NCBI GenBank assembly: GCA_949297145.1
Contig: CASFQO010000002.1
Location: 250,804 to 314,803, forward strand
DNA length: 64,000 nt
Direction: 5' to 3'
From: an uncultured Alphaproteobacteria bacterium
GTDB lineage: Bacteria > Pseudomonadota > Alphaproteobacteria > RF32 > CAG-239
How positions within the stretch are numbered: position 1 is the first letter of the stretch; each line of letters begins with the position of its first letter. The notes under the pieces are model-generated. The model did not search any database and had not been told where the DNA came from. It was given only the letters and a program-made list of their open reading frames with translations. The position numbers were made by a program, and so were the translations under genes. Below are positions 2 to 59,596 of the stretch, piece after piece.

Positions 2-1390
2 AAACGCCGTAATCTCTATAACTTAGACAAAGCACGTGAAGTCGCTTATAAAGAAAAGAACCTGATAATTTGCGAAGGTTATATGGATGTGATAGCCTTA
101 GACCGATATGGTTTCGGATATGCCGTCGCGCCGTTAGGAACGGCTTTAACGGAAGAACAGATTATGGAAGCCTGGCGCGTTTGCCCTGAGCCGATATTGT
201 GTTTAGATGGGGATAGCCCGGGAGTAAAAGCCGCCATGCGCGCGGTAGACAGAGTCTTGCCGATATTAAAAGCCGGCTACTCGCTGAAATTTCTATTTTT
301 ACCGGATAATCAAGATCCGGATGAATATTTGCAGGCTCATGGCCGAGAAAGTTTCGGCGCTTTGATGAAAAAGACAAAGCCACTCATAGATATTTTGTGG
401 CAAAAATACACAGAAAATGAAGATAGTTCCACACCTGAGAAGAAAGCGCTGATAGAAAAGACCTTACTGGCCGAAGTCGCCAAAATAACGGATGCAACGG
501 TGAGGAGCTATTATGCACAAGAAATTCGTAATCGAATTTATTTGGCATTCAAACAAACCGCATGGCAAAAACGCGAATATACGGCTCCCCAACCACGCAC
601 CTATTCGCCGCGCCCTCAACCGACGCCGGTAAGAGCAACACCTGCCCCCGCACCGTATAATCCGCCAATACAAAATCAAGAACCGCCCGCTTATTTAGAC
701 AATATCCCGATAAGCGAACCATTGCCGATGCCAAAAGCTTATGAACCGGCGGCGCAACAACGCCCGAGAACGCCGCAAACACCGACTTATACGCGCTCTA
801 ATAACGGATACGGCAATAATAGCTATGGTAATAATAATCGTTATGGCAACCGCCGCAACAGTTATAATGCGCCCCGCCCTCAGATTAACCATACCATAAG
901 CAACGCTCCGGAGACTTTGCGCCAAAGTGCCGATGGAGAAAATGATAAAAACATCCGCTTCATGATTGCGGCAGAATTGATTTATCCGGAACTGATTGAC
1001 GAATATGAAGAGCAGTTATTCAGCAGCGATATCAAAAATACCAAATTAAAAGAGTTGCTGGAAACCATCGCTGATATTTATCACAATACGGAAACGCCGA
1101 TGTCTTCAGAAGAGCTATTAGAAAAACTGTCAACGACTCCGCAAAATCAGCAGATTAAAGAATTGTGGGAATTAGATATGTTGCAAAAGCGTCCTCCGTT
1201 TATCAATGACTTACGTCGCAACATTGATAAACTCCTTTTAGAAGACAAGCTCCGCGGTTTAGAGGAAGAAATCAAAACATTAACGCAAGAAGTCTGCCAA
1301 AACTTTACCGAAGACGCCTATACCCGCTTAACTGAGCTCAAAAAAGAACGCGATGCAATTTTATCCCACGCGGCTGAGCCCGAAGTCTAG
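2..1390 (+). CDS. dnaG: DNA primase DnaG, C-terminal part (5' end lies outside the window)
   Basis: The frame is open from nt 2, before the ORF-track ATG at 83. Toprim-type motifs LIICEGYMDVIAL and CLDGDSPG are present. A helical C-terminal domain sits where the DnaB-binding domain is expected. A P/Q/N/Y-rich linker spans 578-892. Confidence 0.85.
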   Translation, partial: KRRNLYNLDKAREVAYKEKNLIICEGYMDVIALDRYGFGYAVAPLGTALTEEQIMEAWRVCPEPILCLDGDSPGVKAAMRAVDRVLPILKAGYSLKFLFLPDNQDPDEYLQAHGRESFGALMKKTKPLIDILWQKYTENEDSSTPEKKALIEKTLLAEVAKITDATVRSYYAQEIRNRIYLAFKQTAWQKREYTAPQPRTYSPRPQPTPVRATPAPAPYNPPIQNQEPPAYLDNIPISEPLPMPKAYEPAAQQRPRTPQTPTYTRSNNGYGNNSYGNNNRYGNRRNSYNAPRPQINHTISNAPETLRQSADGENDKNIRFMIAAELIYPELIDEYEEQLFSSDIKNTKLKELLETIADIYHNTETPMSSEELLEKLSTTPQNQQIKELWELDMLQKRPPFINDLRRNIDKLLLEDKLRGLEEEIKTLTQEVCQNFTEDAYTRLTELKKERDAILSHAAEPEV

Positions 1391-1450: not shown

Positions 1451-1479
1451 TTGACAAAACTCTTCCATAATGCTAGAAA
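1451..1479 (+). promoter_or_regulatory. sigma70-type promoter candidate for ncRNA candidate 1
   Basis: TTGACA (1451-1456), 17 nt spacer, TAGAAA (1474-1479). The same cTTGACAAAAC / 17 nt / TAGAA layout recurs at 1942-1970. It fits the TTGAC-N17-TAnnAn pattern seen upstream of rpoD, tRNA-Met and other genes here. Confidence 0.4.
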
Positions 1480-1485
1480 GACAAT

Positions 1486-1905
1486 CACTACAATATAACT
1501 TAAATATTATTTTCTTTTTTTCTTAATTCTTTCTTTTGTCTGCCTTTTTCTAAAATACTATGATTAACGCAGACATCACTCTCCTTCCCTCATGAGAATG
1601 CCGGAACCGAGGTGAAAAGTTTAACAATTTAAGGCAAGACAACTCTTGCTTAATCATGATGTTAGAGCTATCGGTTTGTGAAAATCGATAGTTCTTCTAA
1701 ACAAAAAGATCTATTTTTGCTAGGTAGAGATGTTTACCCTTTCTTTAACATCTCAATAATCTGCCCCTTTGTGAAAAGCAGCAGATTGATTATAAAGAAT
1801 GTTTCTGTTCCATATAAATTTCATGGTTCTCAGTTTACCGTTAAAACGGTAAGCCAAAGATTTGAGGTTTTAAGCGTCTGATTTGTGAAAATCAGGCGCT
1901 TTTTT
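1486..1905 (+). ncRNA. candidate structured ncRNA, copy 1 (unknown family; 5' end only predicted)
   Basis: No credible ORF, a predicted promoter upstream and an intrinsic terminator at the 3' end. Ordered hairpins lie at 1668-1691, 1727-1754, 1758-1787, 1835-1852 and 1874-1899. Three of them are capped by the identical 10-nt UUUGUGAAAA. The same hairpin order is found in the adjacent copy. Confidence 0.35.
1874..1905 (+). terminator. rho-independent terminator
   Basis: GCGTCTGA / TCAGGCGC 8-bp stem (one G.U), UUUGUGAAAA cap, then a T6 run. Confidence 0.7.
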
Positions 1906-1941
1906 GTATCAAAAAACTCTTAAAAAAATTTGAATAAAGAC

Positions 1942-1970
1942 TTGACAAAACATTTAGAACTCGTTAGAAC
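1942..1970 (+). promoter_or_regulatory. sigma70-type promoter candidate for ncRNA candidate 2
   Basis: TTGACA (1942-1947), 17 nt spacer, TAGAAC (1965-1970). Paralogous to 1451-1479. Confidence 0.4.
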
Positions 1971-1976
1971 AACTCC

Positions 1977-2342
1977 CGCAAATTTATTATTGAAATATAC
2001 ATATAAAATCTGTAATAATCCCTGTTTGCAGGTGCATAAACACTTTGCAAACATCAGTTTTCTTTGTTAATAAAGAGCCGTCTGTTTGTGAAAATAGGCC
2101 GTTCTGATAAGTGAAAACGTCTAATTTATGGAGATGTCCCAAAAGCATCTCGCCAATCTGCTTCTTTGTGAAAAGCGGCAGATTTTATAAAGAGTATAAT
2201 TCTTCTTCAGTTCTAGGTAAATAGCCTAAATAGAAGTTTACATATGTAAAAATGACGCTTTACCCCTTTGAGAAAAACGGTAAAGTAATGATTTTTAAGC
2301 AATAAAACGTCTGATTTGTGAAAATCGGACGTTTTACTTTTT
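1977..2342 (+). ncRNA. candidate structured ncRNA, copy 2 (paralog of 1486-1905)
   Basis: Hairpins at 2077-2102, 2131-2151, 2155-2184, about 2258-2285 and 2304-2335 follow the same order as copy 1. Three carry the UUUGUGAAAA cap. There is no ORF of 60 aa or more. Confidence 0.35.
2304..2342. terminator. bidirectional rho-independent terminator
   Basis: AAAACGTCTGA / TCGGACGTTTT 11-bp stem with T-runs on both strands. It ends ncRNA candidate 2 on + and could also end the convergent 863-aa gene on -. Confidence 0.7.
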
Positions 2343-2370: not shown

Positions 2371-4962
2371 TTATTTTTTGCGAAAGAATTTGATTTTTTG
2401 AGCCAAAGCCCTAATTTTAGCAATGGAAGGTGAATTTGCTAAATCAGCATCTTCAACTTTTTGTTTAATCAAAGCAGCCTGCTCCTCAGCCTTTTTGACC
2501 GCCGCCGTAGCTATTTGTTTAATGTGCTCAAAATGTTTATCTACTTCTTGAGAATTGATATTTAAAATACTGGATATATTTATTTTTTGAGACTTTTCAG
2601 TCTGAGGCTCTGCCGCCCCTTCATTATTCCATTCTTCAAATTTCGGCAACTCCGGTGCAACCGCAGGCGTAGGCTCAGTTGCCTTCTCAGTCTGTTCAGC
2701 AGAATCCGTCTGTTGAGAATTTTCTTGAACGCCCTGCTCCGCTGTTGCCTTTATTTGAGGAACTTCTTGAGAGGCAAAAGAAACATCCGGAGCAATAGCC
2801 CTGTTTTCAACAGCAGCTTTATCTAACTCAACTGCTATAGGTTGCTCGCTGCTTGTTGTTTGAATGTCAAATTTTAACATGGAATCATCAGAAATATTTT
2901 GAGTTTTATCAGAATACGTTGTTTCCATAGATGAAATGCCAGTTTTATCTAGGGGATCAATAATATCGGTAACTGCATCAAGCGATAATCCAGCTTGCGA
3001 TGTTGCGTTAATCACTGTACGATCAACATCATCATTCTGCACTGCTACATCAGTAATCGACTTATCCGGTTGCTGCGTATTCTGTTCTTTTTCAACTTTA
3101 TCTACGATATCAGCGGTATTTTCTTTAAATTGAGTTATTGTACCTTTATGCTGTTCGGCTTGTGCATAGCTCCGCAAAATATCTGCCGAAGAAGGAATTT
3201 TGCTTGTTGGCCTGGTTTCAGAAAAGCTTTTTCGTTCCGGTTCTTTATCTTGAATTTTCTGTGGAATAACCAACTCTTTGGGAGCAGAAAATTCACTATG
3301 CGGTAAATCCTTCTGCGTATCATTGATAATATTTTCAGCCACCTTGGCCAAATCAACAGCATCTTTATCTTCTGGGTGCTTGGTAGTAGAAAGAAGAGTA
3401 TGTTCCTCCACTTCTGCCACAGCGTCAACGACTTCATTTTCCAATTGTGCAGATTGCTGAGCATCTAAGAGTTTCTTTTTATCGTTTTCAGCGTATTTAG
3501 CCCAGTTAAGCATAGAAGTTCCTGCCACAAACTGCTCTAATTTTTGTTTAGCCATAGATAAAGGGTTATCCTCGTCAGTTCCGATAATAACGCCTTCTTC
3601 AGTTTCAAACACACGCAAATTTAATTGTTGTGCCAAGAAACACATTTCTTGTGTTAATTTATCATCCATATACATCAAAGTGTTGGCAAACAAAATAAAT
3701 TGCTTAACCAATTCGTTTTTATCCAAGAACCAGTTACCGAAGACTAAGTATTTAAGGAGTATAGCAGCCTGCTGCGGGCATCCGGCTTCAATAAAAATAC
3801 GAGTAGCCGTCAAAGCACGTCTGGCTGCATATTCCATAAAAAAGGCATCACCGCTGCGAAGATTTTGCATATTCATACAAATAATATCTAAAATAAACCC
3901 TTCCGAGCCTTTAACCTTGGGCAGCAAGCGGTGCAAAAAGCCAATAAGTTCAGTAGCTCTACCCTTTTTAGCCAATTCCAACAAGATTTGCACAGCCGAT
4001 TTGATTTGGTTAAGTTCCACCAAGGTCATTGCAAAAACAACACCCTTAGGCTCCGCATCTTTTTGAATAAATTTCAAACAACGTTCGGTTAAGGGTTTTA
4101 TTTTACCAAACTCGTGCTTAATAAATTTAGCTTCGGTTTCATCAAAAAAGCCGTATTCATCTTCAAATTTCGTAGCAAAATCTTCAATTTCGGCATTTCT
4201 GGCCAAAAGAGGTTCCGCTTCCAACTCAGATAACCCGTCCAACGCCTCGTCAGCCATCAATTTAGCTAAAACGGCATCATCAAGCCCGATAGATTTTGGA
4301 GAAAAGCCGTCATTAACGGCATCAAAGAGATAAGAAAAGAGATAGTCTTTTTCTTTTTCGGTCAATTTACGGTGTGTATATGCAGCCACATCACAAAGTT
4401 TGCGCAGAACGTCCGTTTTTTCATACACAGCCGCCACGGCATCAGGCGTAACACCGCAAGCAGCCCCCATCCCTCTAAATCTTTCCAAATATGATTTTAA
4501 TTTATCATTAAGCTCGGTTTCATTGAGTTGTTCCATCATTTTTTTGTAATCAACGCAATAAGGCGAAACCTGTTGCATCAAATCAGCATCAGTTTTGACT
4601 AATTTTTCCAAAACGGTTTTACGAAATTTAACACTGGCCTGAAAATTATCCAATCCTTTCCAAGCTTTAATTCTACCATCGGCAAAGCAGTCAGCCATTT
4701 TTCGGTTATAATCAGCAAGTTCCCCTTTATCAAACGCCTGAACCACGCCAAATTGCACCAACGCGTTCCAAATTTTGTGTCGAACAACGGGAGATGTTCC
4801 CTTAATACCGGCCACACCGATAAGTCCCCATAAATACGGAAAATTAGTTTTATTAAAAATATCTTCGTTTTCCTGAACGCCCAAATTCTTCATAAACCGC
4901 TCAACGACAATTTCTTTTCCTAAAGCGACTACATTTTGCAGTTCAGTTTCATTCCACAACAT
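2371..4962 (-). CDS. hypothetical protein, 863 aa
   Basis: Long uninterrupted ORF. A structured N-terminal ~470 aa is followed by an acidic, Q/T/S-rich low-complexity half. No motif recognised. Confidence 0.7.
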   Translation of the reverse strand: MLWNETELQNVVALGKEIVVERFMKNLGVQENEDIFNKTNFPYLWGLIGVAGIKGTSPVVRHKIWNALVQFGVVQAFDKGELADYNRKMADCFADGRIKAWKGLDNFQASVKFRKTVLEKLVKTDADLMQQVSPYCVDYKKMMEQLNETELNDKLKSYLERFRGMGAACGVTPDAVAAVYEKTDVLRKLCDVAAYTHRKLTEKEKDYLFSYLFDAVNDGFSPKSIGLDDAVLAKLMADEALDGLSELEAEPLLARNAEIEDFATKFEDEYGFFDETEAKFIKHEFGKIKPLTERCLKFIQKDAEPKGVVFAMTLVELNQIKSAVQILLELAKKGRATELIGFLHRLLPKVKGSEGFILDIICMNMQNLRSGDAFFMEYAARRALTATRIFIEAGCPQQAAILLKYLVFGNWFLDKNELVKQFILFANTLMYMDDKLTQEMCFLAQQLNLRVFETEEGVIIGTDEDNPLSMAKQKLEQFVAGTSMLNWAKYAENDKKKLLDAQQSAQLENEVVDAVAEVEEHTLLSTTKHPEDKDAVDLAKVAENIINDTQKDLPHSEFSAPKELVIPQKIQDKEPERKSFSETRPTSKIPSSADILRSYAQAEQHKGTITQFKENTADIVDKVEKEQNTQQPDKSITDVAVQNDDVDRTVINATSQAGLSLDAVTDIIDPLDKTGISSMETTYSDKTQNISDDSMLKFDIQTTSSEQPIAVELDKAAVENRAIAPDVSFASQEVPQIKATAEQGVQENSQQTDSAEQTEKATEPTPAVAPELPKFEEWNNEGAAEPQTEKSQKINISSILNINSQEVDKHFEHIKQIATAAVKKAEEQAALIKQKVEDADLANSPSIAKIRALAQKIKFFRKK

Positions 4963-7303: not shown

Positions 7304-7338
7304 ATAACTATAGCCCTACTCTTTTGTAAGTATATAAC

Positions 7339-7373
7339 AAAAAAGCGGCGTTTCCGATAAGGAAACAACCGCT
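7339..7373 (-). terminator. rho-independent terminator of the 498-aa gene
   Basis: On the minus strand: AGCGG-UU-GUUUCC / GGAAAC-G-CCGCU stem followed by U6. Confidence 0.75.
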
Positions 7374-7380
7374 AATAAAA

Positions 7381-8877
7381 TTACTCAGCAAGTTTTTGCA
7401 AATTGATAACATCATCAAAAGATAATATCTGCTTGTTATCCAGTTTTTTCTTAAACGCGTCCAGTAACGTCAATGCTTCAGCATAATTATGATACTTTTG
7501 TTTCAATTCTTGAGCAAACTGTTTTTGTCTTTCCAAAACTGCAGTATCGTTCAAAATATCATTCATTTTCGCATCCCAATCCAGTATATATTGCAAAGCT
7601 CTACTTCGAGCAAAATTGATTGGTCTTTCATCAAAATAAAGAAGCACATCCGCTTTATGCTCCGAAGGCAAACGTGTCCTATACAGAGACGGCCAAATAC
7701 CACGAGAATAAGAAGCATAACGAGCCCACTTATCCCTGATTTGGCTATACATAACACCACACACTTGTTTTGATATATCCTGCAGTACACCTCGAACTAC
7801 GGCAAATCTCCATTCAGTTTCCAATGCCAATTTAAGGACATCCTTCTGCAAAAAGGCTATATCCATTTTGAGTTCTGTTGTTAATTCTAAAACATTAGCT
7901 GTATAGAACAAAGCCCTATTGAGATAAACATCAGTAGCAGGATTGATAAACCGTTCAGTCCACAAATAATTCATATCATCATGATCCCAAGGGATAAGCT
8001 CATCAATATCAAAATAATTGTTAAACTGAAAAGGTTGTTCACTTTTCCAATCAGAATAGTTAATCCAATACAAAATTTGCACAATTTCCAAAGGTGAAAG
8101 CAACACCGACACGGGTACATCTTCAATAAGTAGATGTTCATCTTTTTCAGACCAACTCCGTTTTGTTTGAATTTTGTGTTGCTGTTCATAATACGGCTCG
8201 TGCGTAATTTTATAAATGCAATTAACCCCGATTTGAATGTAATCCGGATCATAAACCGAATATTCATACCAATCATCCAAATAATATCGACTAAGCCATT
8301 TACAAAACATCATTTGCTCATTAGCTTTTTTACGATATTGATTAGACAAGCCATACCATTCATTTCTATCATCACAAAATTTTTGCTGAAAACTCTGATT
8401 ATCAAATGGTCTGATGTAGAATTGTCCGGAAAGAATATCAAAATAGACTTTAATGATATCAAATTTTTGCGCCAATTCATCTTCCCACAAAGACAGTTCA
8501 TCAAGCTTTTTTTGTAGCTGTTCCGCTTTTGGATTATATCTATCCTCAGACTGATAAGGGACTAATTTGACAAATGTTCTAATATCAATATCACGTTGTT
8601 CGGGCAACTTTGCCAGATTGATAGAAGGAAACCACTCTTCGGCCAAACGCTTCCAATTCCACCCATCTTTAGGCTTATAGGCAAGCATTTCATAAACAAG
8701 ATTAAATCCCAAATCATTTTGAAAAGATTTAGGCTGCTTATCGGATTTAAACCGCACTTGCGCAAAAAAGACATCACAACAGTAATATCCGCTATCATAC
8801 AAGTATTTGCTCAAACAAGCACGCATAAAACGCGCATCTAAAAACTCCTGTCGTAAAGGAACATAAAAATCATTCAT
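7381..8877 (-). CDS. hypothetical protein, 498 aa, W/Y/D-rich
   Basis: Long ORF with its own terminator. No motif recognised. Confidence 0.7.
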   Translation of the reverse strand: MNDFYVPLRQEFLDARFMRACLSKYLYDSGYYCCDVFFAQVRFKSDKQPKSFQNDLGFNLVYEMLAYKPKDGWNWKRLAEEWFPSINLAKLPEQRDIDIRTFVKLVPYQSEDRYNPKAEQLQKKLDELSLWEDELAQKFDIIKVYFDILSGQFYIRPFDNQSFQQKFCDDRNEWYGLSNQYRKKANEQMMFCKWLSRYYLDDWYEYSVYDPDYIQIGVNCIYKITHEPYYEQQHKIQTKRSWSEKDEHLLIEDVPVSVLLSPLEIVQILYWINYSDWKSEQPFQFNNYFDIDELIPWDHDDMNYLWTERFINPATDVYLNRALFYTANVLELTTELKMDIAFLQKDVLKLALETEWRFAVVRGVLQDISKQVCGVMYSQIRDKWARYASYSRGIWPSLYRTRLPSEHKADVLLYFDERPINFARSRALQYILDWDAKMNDILNDTAVLERQKQFAQELKQKYHNYAEALTLLDAFKKKLDNKQILSFDDVINLQKLAE

Positions 8878-19897: not shown

Positions 19898-20117
19898 AAA
19901 AAAGCACTCCTAAAAAAGAGCGCTATTTGAATTGGTAATCCCAATGGGCGGCCGCAAGAAAAAGTGCTAAAATGCACTTTTTCTAAGGAGGCGCAATGAG
20001 ACTTATTTTTCAGAGCAAGTGTAAACGCCGCTATTGAAAAATTTAGTCGGAAGTAAGAGCCTCCATTCGCTTTGCAAAAGCGATGGGTTCAAATCCCGTA
20101 AAAAATAGATTTAAAAC
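19898..20117 (-). repeat. tRNA-Glu-linked structured module, copy A (possible ncRNA or att-derived element)
   Basis: Roughly 94 percent identical by eye to copy B. It contains a tRNA-Glu 3'-end-like segment (19933-19948) and an 11-bp perfect hairpin (19957-19984). It also has an exact inverted copy of the tRNA-Glu T-arm (20083-20099) and its own terminator (19898-19924). Confidence 0.6.
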
Positions 20118-20345
20118 AAAAAAAGCGCTCTTTAGAAAGAGCGCTATTTGAATTGGTGATCCCAATGGGCGGCCGCAAGAAAAAGTACCCTTATGTACTT
20201 TTTCTAAGGAGACGCAATGAGACTTATTTTTCAGAGCAAGTGTAAACGCCGCTATTGAAAAATTTAGTCGGAAGTAAGAGCCTCTATTCGCTTTGCAAAA
20301 GCGATGGGGTCAAATCCCGTAAAACAGAAAAATAGATTTGAAACA
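20118..20345 (-). repeat. tRNA-Glu-linked structured module, copy B
   Basis: tRNA-Glu 3'-end-like segment at 20154-20169. The 11-bp hairpin at 20178-20205 differs from copy A by a compensatory G:C to A:T change. Inverted T-arm copy at 20304-20320 (1 mismatch) and terminator at 20118-20145. Confidence 0.6.
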
Positions 20346-20377
20346 CAAAAAGAGGAAGTATATACTTCCTCTTTTCT
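20346..20377 (-). terminator. rho-independent terminator of tRNA-Glu
   Basis: Perfect palindrome AGAGGAAGTATATACTTCCTCT, followed on the minus strand by UUUUUGUGUUU. Confidence 0.75.
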
Positions 20378-20380
20378 AAT

Positions 20381-20455
20381 TGGTGATCCCAACGGGATTT
20401 GAACCCATGTTACCGCCGTGAAAGGGCGATGTCCTAACCACTAGACGATGGGACC
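20381..20455 (-). tRNA. tRNA-Glu (anticodon UUC), CCA encoded
   Basis: Manual cloverleaf. Acceptor GGTCCCA/TGGGATC, anticodon stem TCGCC/GGCGG, loop CTTTCAC, T-arm ATGGG-TTCAAAT-CCCGT. Length 75 nt. Confidence 0.93.
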
Positions 20456-59562: not shown

Positions 59563-59596
59563 AAACGCGGGAATGTGAAAATTCTCGCGTTTTTTG
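59563..59596 (+). terminator. rho-independent terminator of gltX
   Basis: AAACGCGGGAAT / ATTCTCGCGTTT 12-bp stem, GUGAAA loop, then a T-run. Confidence 0.8.

What the first reader, a model, noticed from the sequence alone, without database searches (positions are those of the whole stretch)
1451..2342. Two tandem ~0.4 kb candidate ncRNA genes whose six hairpins all carry the identical cap UUUGUGAAAA
The 980-bp gap after dnaG has no convincing ORF. It contains two paralogous units, each with the same promoter layout (cTTGACAAAAC, 17 nt spacer, TAGAA) and the same order of five hairpins ending in a terminator. Three hairpins per unit carry UUUGUGAAAA at the tip, at 1675, 1768, 1882, 2085, 2165 and 2315. 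This can be read as three U-A pairs closing a GUGA (GNRA-type) tetraloop. The supporting stems fall into three unrelated sequence classes (CUAUCGG / GCCGUCUG, AAUCUGC, CGUCUGA). The cap is therefore conserved while the stems vary, which is the reverse of REP-type repeats. Other hairpins keep their pairing with changed sequence: GAGATGTT/AACATCTC vs GAGATG/CATCTC, and TTACCG/CGGTAA vs CTTTACC/GGTAAAG. Multiple identical loops on one RNA recall protein-titrating sRNAs (the CsrB/RsmZ logic) or tetraloop-receptor architectures of large structured RNAs. I do not recognise the family.
Basis: partly seen in the sequence, partly recalled or inferred. Interest (0 to 1): 0.62.

Follow-up and report, generated by a model that had tools for sequence, protein, structure and literature searches.

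The report
Tandem sRNA genes with capped hairpins
The gap after dnaG holds two neighbouring genes for an undescribed small RNA of uncultured gut Alphaproteobacteria; each RNA is a string of hairpins ending in the same 10-base tip, probably a repeated docking site for an unknown partner.

Summary
TTTGTGAAAA occurs six times in 64 kb (0.88 expected), always on the + strand, always at a hairpin tip, and only within 1675-2324. A seventh cap (TTTGAGAAAA, 2267) was missed. Two units (about 1486-1908 and 1977-2342) each have a TTGACA-N17-TAGAAx promoter and a capped intrinsic terminator, and both fold strongly (z -7.8 and -6.7).

It is a family. I found 15 complete units plus partial arrays in related Alphaproteobacteria MAGs from cattle, yak, chicken and human gut, at the same dnaG/gene X/rpoD locus and at two other loci. 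Among 49 distinct hairpins chosen by cap sequence alone, the cap U3-G(U/C/A)GA-A3 is fixed. The nine stem pairs below it vary but stay paired (88% against 63% shuffled and 47-55% slid).

The cap is not a general terminator or REP feature here. Rfam and the literature hold nothing like it. Bovine metatranscriptome contigs cover only the RNA units of one relative, not its flanking genes.

The function is inferred, not shown. The most likely role is a multivalent decoy or scaffold for a cap-recognising factor (CsrB/RsmZ logic with a different code). A base-pairing role for the conserved AU-rich 5' end, or tetraloop-mediated RNA architecture, remain open. There are no expression data for this window itself.

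The parts
1451..1479 (+). Promoter of unit 1: -35 TTGACA (1451-1456), 17-nt spacer, -10 TAGAAA (1474-1479)
   Evidence: Sequence. The same TTGAC(A/T)-N16/17-TAnnnn layout heads all 15 units aligned.
1486..1908 (+). Unit 1 RNA, about 420 nt. The start is inferred from the promoter and the end from the terminator U-tract.
   Evidence: Fold -122.5 kcal/mol, z -7.75. Orthologous single units occur in L123 and L124.
1486..1536 (+). AU-rich, mostly unpaired 5' region (…CACUACAAUAUAACUUAAAUAUUAUUUUC…), conserved across units
   Evidence: Alignments. Unpaired in the MFE fold.
1537..1575 (+). 5' hairpin GUCUGCC/GCAGAC with a large loop containing UACUAUGA
   Evidence: The stem is retained in L123, L124, L125 and L126.
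1576..1615 (+). Hairpin H0 tipped CAU-GAGA-AUG (loop 1594-1597). It is homologous to a fully capped hairpin CCUUCCCCUUUGUGAAAACCGGAAGG in L125, L126 and L153.
1664..1695 (+). Capped hairpin H1 (cap 1675-1684)
   Evidence: R1 score 33.2 bits.
1727..1754 (+). Uncapped hairpin GAGAUGUU/AACAUCUC
   Evidence: It is replaced by GGAUAUUU/AAAUAUCC in L124.
1758..1787 (+). Capped hairpin H2 (cap 1768-1777) with an internal C·C/C·A mismatch
   Evidence: R1 score 36.7 bits.
1833..1853 (+). Hairpin UUUACCG/CGGUAAG with loop UUAAAA. It is the counterpart of the GAGA-capped hairpin of unit 2 and looks like a decayed cap.
1872..1908 (+). Capped intrinsic terminator of unit 1 (cap 1882-1891) plus U-tract
   Evidence: R1 score 33.1 bits.
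1942..1970 (+). Promoter of unit 2: -35 TTGACA (1942-1947), 17-nt spacer, -10 TAGAAC (1965-1970)
1977..2342 (+). Unit 2 RNA, about 365 nt (ends inferred)
   Evidence: Fold -100.8 kcal/mol, z -6.67
2074..2105 (+). Capped hairpin H1' (cap 2085-2094)
   Evidence: R1 score 31.2 bits.
2131..2151 (+). Uncapped hairpin GAGAUG/CAUCUC
2155..2184 (+). Capped hairpin H2' (cap 2165-2174)
   Evidence: R1 score 38.2 bits.
2258..2285 (+). Seventh capped hairpin, CUUUACC/GGUAAAG with cap UUUGAGAAAA (2267-2276)
   Evidence: R1 score 31.0 bits.
2303..2342 (+). Capped intrinsic terminator of unit 2 (cap 2315-2324). It lies 35 nt from the stop of the convergent gene X and probably works in both directions.
   Evidence: R1 score 37.4 bits.

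Best explanation
Positions 1451-2342 hold two tandem, independently transcribed genes for a non-coding RNA of about 365-420 nt. The RNA belongs to an undescribed family found in uncultured gut Alphaproteobacteria. Each RNA has a conserved AU-rich single-stranded 5' end followed by a variable number of modular hairpins. The stems of these hairpins differ, but their tips are the same 10-nt cap: three U-A pairs closing a GNGA (GNRA-type) tetraloop. The last capped hairpin doubles as the intrinsic terminator. Shown: the anatomy, conservation of the family, covariation of the stems, invariance of the cap, restriction to these loci, and presence in metatranscriptomes for relatives. Inferred: the cap is a recognition module presented in many copies, so the RNA works in trans as a multivalent decoy or scaffold for one cap-recognising factor. 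That factor is most likely an RNA-binding protein, so the logic is that of CsrB/RsmZ or CrcZ with a different recognition code. Gene and hairpin duplication would set the dose.
For: Six exact caps plus one GAGA variant are clustered on one strand. All 15 units have a TTGAC(A/T)-N16/17-TAnnnn promoter, and capped terminators are present. Folds give z -7.75 and -6.67. The family occurs at the syntenic dnaG/gene X/rpoD locus in L090, L121-L127, L130 and L153 and similar loci. It also occurs at other loci: L071 next to tRNA-Leu, and L128/L129 after an ankyrin gene. Among 49 distinct hairpins picked by cap sequence only, 9 of the 10 cap positions are invariant and the loop N is U in 34, C in 13 and A in 2. 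The 9 stem pairs below all show double-sided changes. Pairing is 88.3% against 63.4% shuffled and 47-55% in slid registers, and the covariation score is 0.63 against 0.18. The number of caps per unit varies from 1-2 to 6, units number 1 to 3 per locus, and L090 has amplified a two-hairpin sub-repeat of about 150 nt. That is modular behaviour, as expected of independent binding sites and not of one fixed fold. A covariance model of the hairpin scores the family at 23-40 bits. Everything else in the window scores at most 16 bits, and 583 kb of control loci that each contain two exact 10-mers score at most 21 bits. In four bovine metatranscriptomes, one of them size-fractionated, contigs cover only the two L071 units and partially the adjacent tRNA, with nothing on the flanking CDS. 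In two faecal/gut metatranscriptomes, the zero-mismatch contigs among those listed for L090 lie in the array. Rfam and the literature give no hit.
Against: No partner has been identified. No capped hairpin was found in an mRNA leader in the window or in about 120 kb of related loci, so there is no sign of a regulon sharing the motif. There are no RNA data for the window's own sequence, and the relatives' data are unstranded assembled contigs. In hairpin H0 the closing pairs are C-A-U/A-U-G, not U3/A3, so the U-A run is not absolute. The sponge logic rests on analogy. The conserved 5' region would fit a base-pairing sRNA equally well. The near-identical strain L121 has too few differences to show selection on the hairpins (2 of 20 differences fall in hairpins, p = 0.40).
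Confidence: 0.42

Rival explanations
1. It is a base-pairing sRNA. The conserved AU-rich single-stranded 5' region, with recurring AAUUAUU/AUAUUAUUUU, is the seed that pairs with mRNAs. The GNRA-capped hairpins only provide folding stability, nuclease resistance or processing signals.
For: The 5' stretch is conserved in sequence and position in all 15 units and is unpaired in the MFE fold. Tandem paralogous base-pairing sRNAs are common in Alphaproteobacteria (own knowledge: AbcR1/2). GNRA loops stabilise hairpins (established knowledge).
Against: Stability alone does not explain an invariant U3/A3 closing run, which gives weak pairs, on 49 otherwise different stems. It also does not explain hairpin copy-number expansion. 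No target was identified, and the duplex scan did not finish.
Confidence: 0.25
2. It is a self-folding or self-assembling structured RNA. The GNGA tetraloops dock into helical or internal-loop receptors of the same RNA or of sister copies. This would be tetraloop-receptor architecture as in group I/II introns and RNase P, or the multimeric ROOL/GOLLD-type assemblies.
For: GNRA loops are classical tertiary-contact modules (established knowledge). A recurrent mismatch at the fifth pair below the loop is unpaired in 28 of 49 hairpins and could be a receptor. The folds have very low energy.
Against: The number and order of capped hairpins change freely between orthologues, and sub-repeats amplify. 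That is hard to reconcile with one defined tertiary fold. No conserved 11-nt-type receptor motif was seen. No Rfam large-RNA family matches.
Confidence: 0.12
3. It is not an RNA gene. The hairpins would be DNA-level or generic elements: REP/MITE-like repeats, a stack of terminators for dnaG and the convergent gene, or palindromic operators for a TGTGA-binding protein.
For: The last hairpin of unit 2 lies 35 nt from the stop of gene X and can terminate it. TGTGA resembles a CRP half-site (own knowledge). One other terminator, at 59563-59592, has an AUGUGAAAAU tip.
Against: No capped hairpin exists elsewhere in 64 kb, and other terminators use diverse loops. Every cap is on the promoter's strand, and the reverse orientation scores 12-19 bits against 31-38. 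The loop varies as GNGA, keeping the RNA motif and not the TGTGA word. Own promoters are conserved, including at loci without dnaG. RNA contigs are restricted to the units.
Confidence: 0.05
4. It is an anticodon-loop mimic. Read as a 7-nt loop, U-UUGUGAA-A has U33, G34-U35-G36 and A37, so it looks like tRNA-His. The RNA could then decoy an enzyme or toxin that reads U-G-U anticodon loops, such as tRNA-guanine transglycosylase or an anticodon nuclease.
For: Sequence resemblance only. The minimal UGU-hairpin substrate of TGT and the G34-U35 specificity of colicin E5 are from my own knowledge.
Against: The middle base varies (U 34, C 13, A 2), and in the human-gut-type units most caps are GCGA. 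A tetraloop on three U-A pairs is the thermodynamically favoured form. No tRNA-His was at hand for comparison.
Confidence: 0.04

Closest known systems
CsrB/CsrC, RsmX/Y/Z (CsrA/RsmA-sequestering sRNAs)
   Same: A non-coding RNA built from many hairpins that present one short motif at the tip. It has its own promoter and a Rho-independent terminator, paralogous gene copies, and a variable number of motif hairpins between species. CsrA is controlled by sequestration on such sRNAs (PMC4894983).
   Different: The motif here is UUU-GNGA-AAA, not A(N)GGA. The units contain almost no GGA, and none in a loop. There is no covariance-model match. The partner is unknown, and the lineage is uncultured Alphaproteobacteria.
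CcsR1-4 / 'cuckoo' RNAs (Rfam ar14 group) of Alphaproteobacteria
   Same: Alphaproteobacterial sRNAs arranged as several homologous copies side by side. Each copy is made of hairpins that carry one conserved loop motif (PMC8034643; Reinkensmeier & Giegerich 2015, cited there).
   Different: Cuckoo loops are the anti-Shine-Dalgarno CCUCCUCCC and act by base pairing. They are linked to DUF1127 genes and can be processed from a UTR. Here the loops are 4-nt GNGA tetraloops closed by A-U pairs, which are unsuited to pairing with ribosome-binding sites, and each unit has its own promoter. One relative (L126 unit 2) ends in a terminator with a UCCUCCUCCC loop. That is a curiosity, not a membership.
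CrcZ/CrcY (Hfq/Crc-titrating sRNAs of Pseudomonas)
   Same: An RNA of about 400 nt with several copies of one short motif, sometimes in tandem paralogues, that acts as a protein sponge (own knowledge; reviewed in PMC8395346).
   Different: The CrcZ motifs are unstructured A-rich AANAANAA stretches, not hairpin caps. There is no model match.
boxB hairpins bound by lambdoid N proteins
   Same: A short hairpin whose GNRA-like loop, closed by U-A, is the specific ligand of a protein (own knowledge). It shows that a GNRA-type cap can be a protein recognition code.
   Different: boxB is a single cis-acting pentaloop (GAAAA/GAAGA) in a phage nut site. Here there are 3-7 tetraloop caps per chromosomal sRNA locus. 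The viral-contig scan gave no member.
Large structured RNAs that use GNRA tetraloop contacts (group I/II introns, RNase P, ROOL/GOLLD)
   Same: Several GNRA tetraloops on one highly structured RNA.
   Different: Those RNAs have a fixed architecture with dedicated receptors. Here the capped hairpins are modular and vary in number. No Rfam match.

Membership tests
CsrB/RsmZ-type CsrA sponge | Many GGA (A(N)GGA) motifs exposed in hairpin loops | tested here: not met
   All seven caps are UUUG(U/A)GAAAA. GGA occurs once in unit 1 and twice in unit 2, always inside stems.
CsrB/RsmZ-type CsrA sponge | Match to the Rfam covariance models (CsrB, CsrC, RsmX/Y/Z and relatives) | tested here: not met
   No hit at gathering threshold or at E<=10.
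CsrB/RsmZ-type CsrA sponge | Binds and sequesters CsrA/RsmA | not testable with these tools
   Needs biochemistry. The presence of csrA in this genome was not examined.
Cuckoo / CcsR / ar14 | Hairpin loops carrying CCUCCUCCC (anti-SD) | tested here: not met
   The loops are GNGA tetraloops. No Rfam hit.
Cuckoo / CcsR / ar14 | Several homologous copies in tandem | tested here: met
   Two units in the window, L121 and L071, and three in L126.
Cuckoo / CcsR / ar14 | Adjacent DUF1127 gene (CIN1 context) | not tested
   The neighbours are dnaG, gene X and rpoD. Small ORFs were not scanned for DUF1127.
REP / dispersed terminator element | Many copies dispersed through the genome in intergenic regions, in either orientation | tested here: not met
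   No further copy in 64 kb with the full-model search. Other terminators have unrelated loops. Orientation always follows the promoter. Only 64 kb plus about 10 kb per relative could be examined.
GNRA tetraloop hairpin | 4-nt loop G-N-R-A on a Watson-Crick stem, with N free to vary | tested here: met
   Loops are GUGA in 34, GCGA in 13 and GAGA in 2 of 49 hairpins, with rare GCAA/GUAA in looser matches. The closing pairs are invariant U-A. The 3D fold itself is not testable here.
Independent sRNA gene | Own promoter and own Rho-independent terminator, with no conserved ORF | tested here: met
   Promoter layout is the same in 15 of 15 units. Terminators are present. ORFs in the gap are 67 aa or shorter, start inside caps, and are broken by indels between units.
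Independent sRNA gene | Discrete transcript of the predicted size and strand | tested here: inconclusive
   There are no RNA runs for the window. For relative L071, RNA contigs cover only the units. For L090, the zero-mismatch contigs among those listed from the two true metatranscriptomes lie in the array. These are assembled contigs without strand or end information.
Known Rfam large or small RNA families (all 4227) | Covariance-model score at or above the gathering threshold | tested here: not met
   Only tRNAs pass. The best sub-threshold hits are terminator look-alikes, such as rli36 at 25 bits against 50 and GlmZ at 22.7 against 60.

The most novel reading that the evidence does not exclude
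The U3-GNGA-A3 hairpin is the recognition code of a still unknown global RNA-binding regulator of gut Alphaproteobacteria, and these tandem sRNAs are its dedicated multivalent antagonists. That would be a Csr/Rsm-like sequestration system that arose independently with a structured GNRA cap instead of a GGA motif. Through the cap-as-terminator design, sRNA dosage would be coupled directly to transcription termination.
Probability: 0.3. Interest if true: 0.8.

Novelty: new variant of a known kind. Interest (0 to 1): 0.6.

Why it matters
Uncultured Alphaproteobacteria of animal and human guts have essentially no described riboregulation. Here is a conserved, apparently abundant sRNA family with an unusually clear design: one invariant structured cap repeated on variable stems, with hairpin and gene copy number changing between lineages. 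One gene X cluster of the human-gut-type lineage stands for 823 member sequences, so at least one carrier lineage is common. If the cap is a protein-binding code, it defines a new sequestration system and gives a direct handle for finding the regulator: a 10-nt bait with obvious loss-of-function mutants. If instead the caps mediate RNA-RNA architecture, the family is a compact new model for modular tetraloop assemblies. In either case the hairpin model (R1) and the promoter-cap-terminator grammar allow the family to be annotated in metagenomes, where these gaps are currently left blank or break assemblies (L090 and L122 end inside the array).

Tried and rejected
1. Rfam at gathering and permissive thresholds, on the window and on 10 related loci: only tRNAs.

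2. Literature searches for the cap word and for GNRA, tandem and alphaproteobacterial sRNA: nothing relevant.

Only L071 and L090 are real.

The real hits are six L125-like contigs and the odd array L248. So the family's full range is NOT mapped.

5. Viral contigs: 8 pattern hits, none with capped hairpins. I rejected a phage origin.

6. RNA runs for the window: none. L126 could not be submitted. The chicken 'RNA-Seq' runs X15 and X16 cover the whole L090 locus evenly, so they behave like DNA and are uninformative.

7. Selection test between the window and L121: too few differences (p = 0.40).

8. Gene X as a candidate partner: no Pfam, NCBIfam or PDB sequence match. The AF2 model shows a helical-repeat N-domain, a disordered linker and a C-terminal helix. 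Foldseek gives only generic TPR/ARM/HEAT matches with TM <= 0.32. There is no evidence that it binds RNA.

9. RNAduplex scan of the 5' region against start-codon regions: timed out and was not repeated.

10. Small-ORF reading: the conserved UACUAUGA could start 11-30-codon ORFs in some units. It has no SD, the motif is lost in L124, and the peptides differ. Rejected.

11. Anticodon-mimic idea: weakened by the U/C/A variation of the middle base.
Full report
1. OBSERVATION.

The stretch between the end of dnaG (stop at 1390; Toprim and DnaB-binding domains) and the convergent 863-aa gene X (2371-4962, minus strand) has no credible ORF. TTTGTGAAAA occurs exactly six times in the 64-kb window, at the stated coordinates, always on the + strand. 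Shuffles give 0.88 on average and never six. The 8-mer core is not enriched overall, but all its copies are here.

Each copy is the centre of an inverted repeat. Both units fold far better than shuffles: -122.5 kcal/mol with z -7.75, and -100.8 kcal/mol with z -6.67. The last capped hairpin of each unit is called as an intrinsic terminator (1872-1901 and 2303-2336). The boxes CTTGACAAAAC-N17-TAGAAA/C are present at 1450 and 1941.

A seventh cap with a GAGA loop sits at 2267 on the CTTTACC/GGTAAAG hairpin. A GAGA-tipped hairpin sits at 1591-1600. The unit-1 counterpart of the seventh hairpin (1833-1853) looks like a cap that has lost its tetraloop.

2. NOT A KNOWN FAMILY AND NOT A GENERIC ELEMENT.

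Rfam 15 gives only three tRNAs in the window. At E<=10 it gives only terminator look-alikes far below threshold in the gap. A catalogue of all strong hairpins and terminator-like sites in the window shows diverse loops elsewhere, such as UUCG and UAGA. The cap appears only in the gap, and one terminator (59563-59592) has a partial AUGUGAAAAU.

A covariance model of the capped hairpin (R1, built from A1), run with filters off, finds seven hits at 31-38 bits. All are at 1666-2333 on the + strand. The same hairpins on the other strand reach 12-19 bits, and the best unrelated site reaches 16 bits. The window's own hairpins were in the training set, so the informative part is the absence of anything else. 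Control loci totalling 583 kb, each containing two exact 10-mers by chance, reach at most 21 bits.

3. IT IS A FAMILY.

A two-cap pattern scan of one genome per species returned mostly chance hits, but two Alphaproteobacteria MAGs are real. L071 (yak reticulum) has two tandem units of about 260-285 nt. Each has TTGACT-N17-TAnnnn, three hairpins capped CUUUGUGAAAAG (one variant), and a capped terminator. They lie between an unrelated gene and tRNA-Leu. L090 is syntenic with the window (rpoD, a gene X homologue, then the array). It has GCGA as well as GUGA loops and an amplified two-hairpin sub-repeat, and its contig ends inside the array.

Gene X has 80 detectable homologues and no annotation. 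I fetched the DNA around ten of them. In eight the order rpoD, X, gap, dnaG is kept; L122 breaks off inside the gap before dnaG, and extra genes lie between the gap and dnaG in L126 and L130. Each gap (0.5-2.4 kb where complete) carries one to three units. In L128 and L129, where X is only about 32% identical and dnaG and rpoD are absent, a unit of about 235 nt lies after the ankyrin gene downstream of X.

A three-cap metagenome scan was swamped by satellite repeats. It still added six L125-like contigs, one of them labelled human gut. No viral contig carries the structure. Rfam finds nothing in the relatives.

All 15 complete units share a perfect -35 TTGAC(A/T), a 16-17-nt spacer, a TAnnnn -10, and an AU-rich 5' stretch with recurring AAUUAUU/AUAUUAUUUU. 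Unit lengths, inferred from promoter and terminator, range from about 235 to about 615 nt.

4. CAP FIXED, STEMS COVARYING.

I extracted every TTTGNGAAAA in the RNA regions with 9 nt on either side, without any pairing filter. This gave 49 distinct sequences that align without gaps (A1). The loop is GUGA in 34, GCGA in 13 and GAGA in 2.

For the plain 12-pair hairpin, 88.3% of cells are standard pairs, against 63.4% after shuffling partners (0 of 500 shuffles reach it) and 47-55% when the 3' arm is slid by 1-3 columns. All nine pairs below the cap show changes on both sides (141 cells against 51 expected). The covariation score is 0.63 against 0.18. The fifth pair from the loop is unpaired in 28 of 49, which is a recurrent internal mismatch.

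These hairpins are related to one another, so the shuffle control overstates significance. The slid-register control keeps that relatedness, and it is equally clear.

A whole-unit alignment of the four closest units (A2) gives a consensus with H1, the GAGAUG/CAUCUC hairpin, H2 and the terminator, with compensatory pairs in H1 and the terminator. In L124 the middle hairpin is GGAUAUUU/AAAUAUCC, which is a different sequence with the same hairpin. Hairpin H0 of the window (CAU-GAGA-AUG) corresponds to a full cap in L125, L126 and L153. There, loop type and pairing are kept while the closing pairs changed.

5. EXPRESSION.

No indexed RNA run holds the window's sequence. It is in four metagenome runs. 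For L071, nine bovine gut metatranscriptome runs hold part of the region. I laid four of them on 2.3 kb. The assembled contigs cover 2210-2387 (unit A) and 2548-2739 (unit B), with partial, mismatched matches over the tRNA-Leu gene and nothing on either flanking protein gene. One of the four runs is a size-fractionated library.

DNA contamination would have covered the flanks as well. Contig ends coincide with sequence shared between the two units, so they say little about RNA ends.

For L090, two 'RNA-Seq' chicken runs cover the whole locus evenly and behave like DNA. In two genuine metatranscriptomes, the zero-mismatch contigs among those listed lie at 7312-7441, inside the array.

This shows that family members are present as RNA at levels above their neighbours. 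It does not give strand, ends, or anything for the window itself.

6. MECHANISM.

Shown: promoter, terminator, modular hairpins, invariant cap, variable copy number, and locus restriction.

Inferred: a 10-nt element that stays identical on about 50 stems of unrelated sequence, across lineages whose neighbouring protein has diverged to 30-60% identity, must be read by something that sees both sequence and shape. Three U-A pairs are not what selection for stability alone would choose. Presenting 2-7 copies per RNA, duplicating genes and amplifying sub-repeats is how known sequestering sRNAs behave. CsrB/RsmZ does this for CsrA (PMC4894983), and CrcZ does it for Hfq/Crc (own knowledge; PMC8395346). 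I therefore favour a multivalent decoy or scaffold for a cap-binding factor (0.42).

Points against: no partner is known, no mRNA in the sequence at hand carries the cap, and the conserved 5' end suggests a base-pairing function. That function could be the main one (0.25) or could coexist with the decoy role. Tetraloop-receptor architecture (0.12) fits the GNRA chemistry but not the free variation in number and order of capped hairpins. DNA-level or pure-terminator readings (0.05) are contradicted by strand bias, GNGA-type variation, own promoters and the RNA contigs. An anticodon-loop mimic (0.04) is contradicted by the variable middle base.

7. COMPARISON AND NOVELTY.

The RNA works like a repeated-motif sRNA, but it fails the defining features of each named family. 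It has no GGA loops, so it is not Csr/Rsm. It has no CCUCCUCCC loops, so it is not cuckoo/CcsR (PMC8034643). It has no A-rich linear motifs, so it is not CrcZ. It matches no Rfam model. It is therefore a new family and a new variant of a known kind of system.

8. GENE X.

X is specific to this clade and keeps company with the sRNA even where dnaG and rpoD are gone. It has a confidently modelled all-helical repeat domain (residues about 20-470), a disordered stretch of about 300 residues, and a conserved C-terminal helix ending KIKFFRKK. The fold search returns only generic helical-repeat scaffolds, and sequence searches return nothing. The linkage is noted but gives no mechanism.

Noticed in passing
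window 19898-20324 (next to tRNA-Glu, 20381-20455, minus strand): There is a second duplicated intergenic element: two tandem 221-bp copies, 93% identical. Each has a 26-nt copy of the tRNA-Glu 3' end (also at 20371 in the tRNA itself) and a palindromic terminator (19903-19924 and 20124-20145). Each also has a 13-codon ORF with a strong SD on the + strand (MRLIFQSKCKRRY) and a hairpin CCAUUCGC-UUUGCAAAA-GCGAUGG, whose tip is cap-like (UUU-GCAA-AAA) on the + strand. It has no Rfam match and folds with z about -4 on either strand. It could be a tRNA-linked integration scar or another small RNA/peptide gene pair.
   Followed up: partly
window 2371-4962 (minus strand), gene X: A clade-specific 863-aa protein is inserted between dnaG and rpoD. 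It has no Pfam, NCBIfam or PDB sequence match. The AF2 model shows a helical-repeat N-domain (pLDDT 85-95), about 300 disordered acidic/polar residues and a conserved C-terminal amphipathic helix ending KIKFFRKK. Foldseek gives only generic TPR/ARM/HEAT hits. It stays within 2.3 kb of the sRNA in L128 and L129, where the dnaG/rpoD context is lost.
   Followed up: partly
L248, minus strand, about 300-1500 of the reverse complement (locus about 3430-4630): This metagenome contig has at least 14 hairpins about 100 nt apart, with tips YUUGUGAAAR. Most are followed by CUUUUUCYAAGAC, and the array lies beside a cluster of four tRNA genes. The hairpin model scores six of them at 23-33 bits. The architecture differs from the sRNA family (I looked for no promoters), and the origin is unknown.
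   Followed up: partly
L126 6461-8908 (minus strand): Unit 2 of this three-unit locus does not end in a GNRA cap. It ends in a terminator whose loop reads UCCUCCUCCC, the 'cuckoo' anti-SD motif of other alphaproteobacterial sRNAs. Upstream of unit 1 the gap also holds a CT-rich microsatellite and two pairs of repeats of about 100-170 nt.
   Followed up: no
L090 7050-7589 and L122 6671-6802: Assemblies break inside the hairpin array: both contigs end there. Chicken-gut contigs join L090 positions 7403 and 7257 differently, which suggests strain-level variation in sub-repeat copy number.
   Followed up: no
It is the only other terminator in the window that resembles the cap. The hairpin model does not list it at E <= 10.
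   Followed up: partly
window 83-1390 (dnaG, partial): About 140 residues between the DnaB_bind match (106-151) and the C-terminal DnaG_DnaB_bind match (292-419) match no Pfam model. The DNA there (about 600-900) encodes a Pro/Gln/Asn/Tyr-rich low-complexity linker.
   Followed up: no
L071 2210-2387: In one bovine metatranscriptome the contig over unit A runs straight into Illumina adapter at 2387, just before the terminator cap, and starts at the first capped hairpin (2210). This could reflect a defined processed species, or it could be only an assembly or RT artefact.
   Followed up: no
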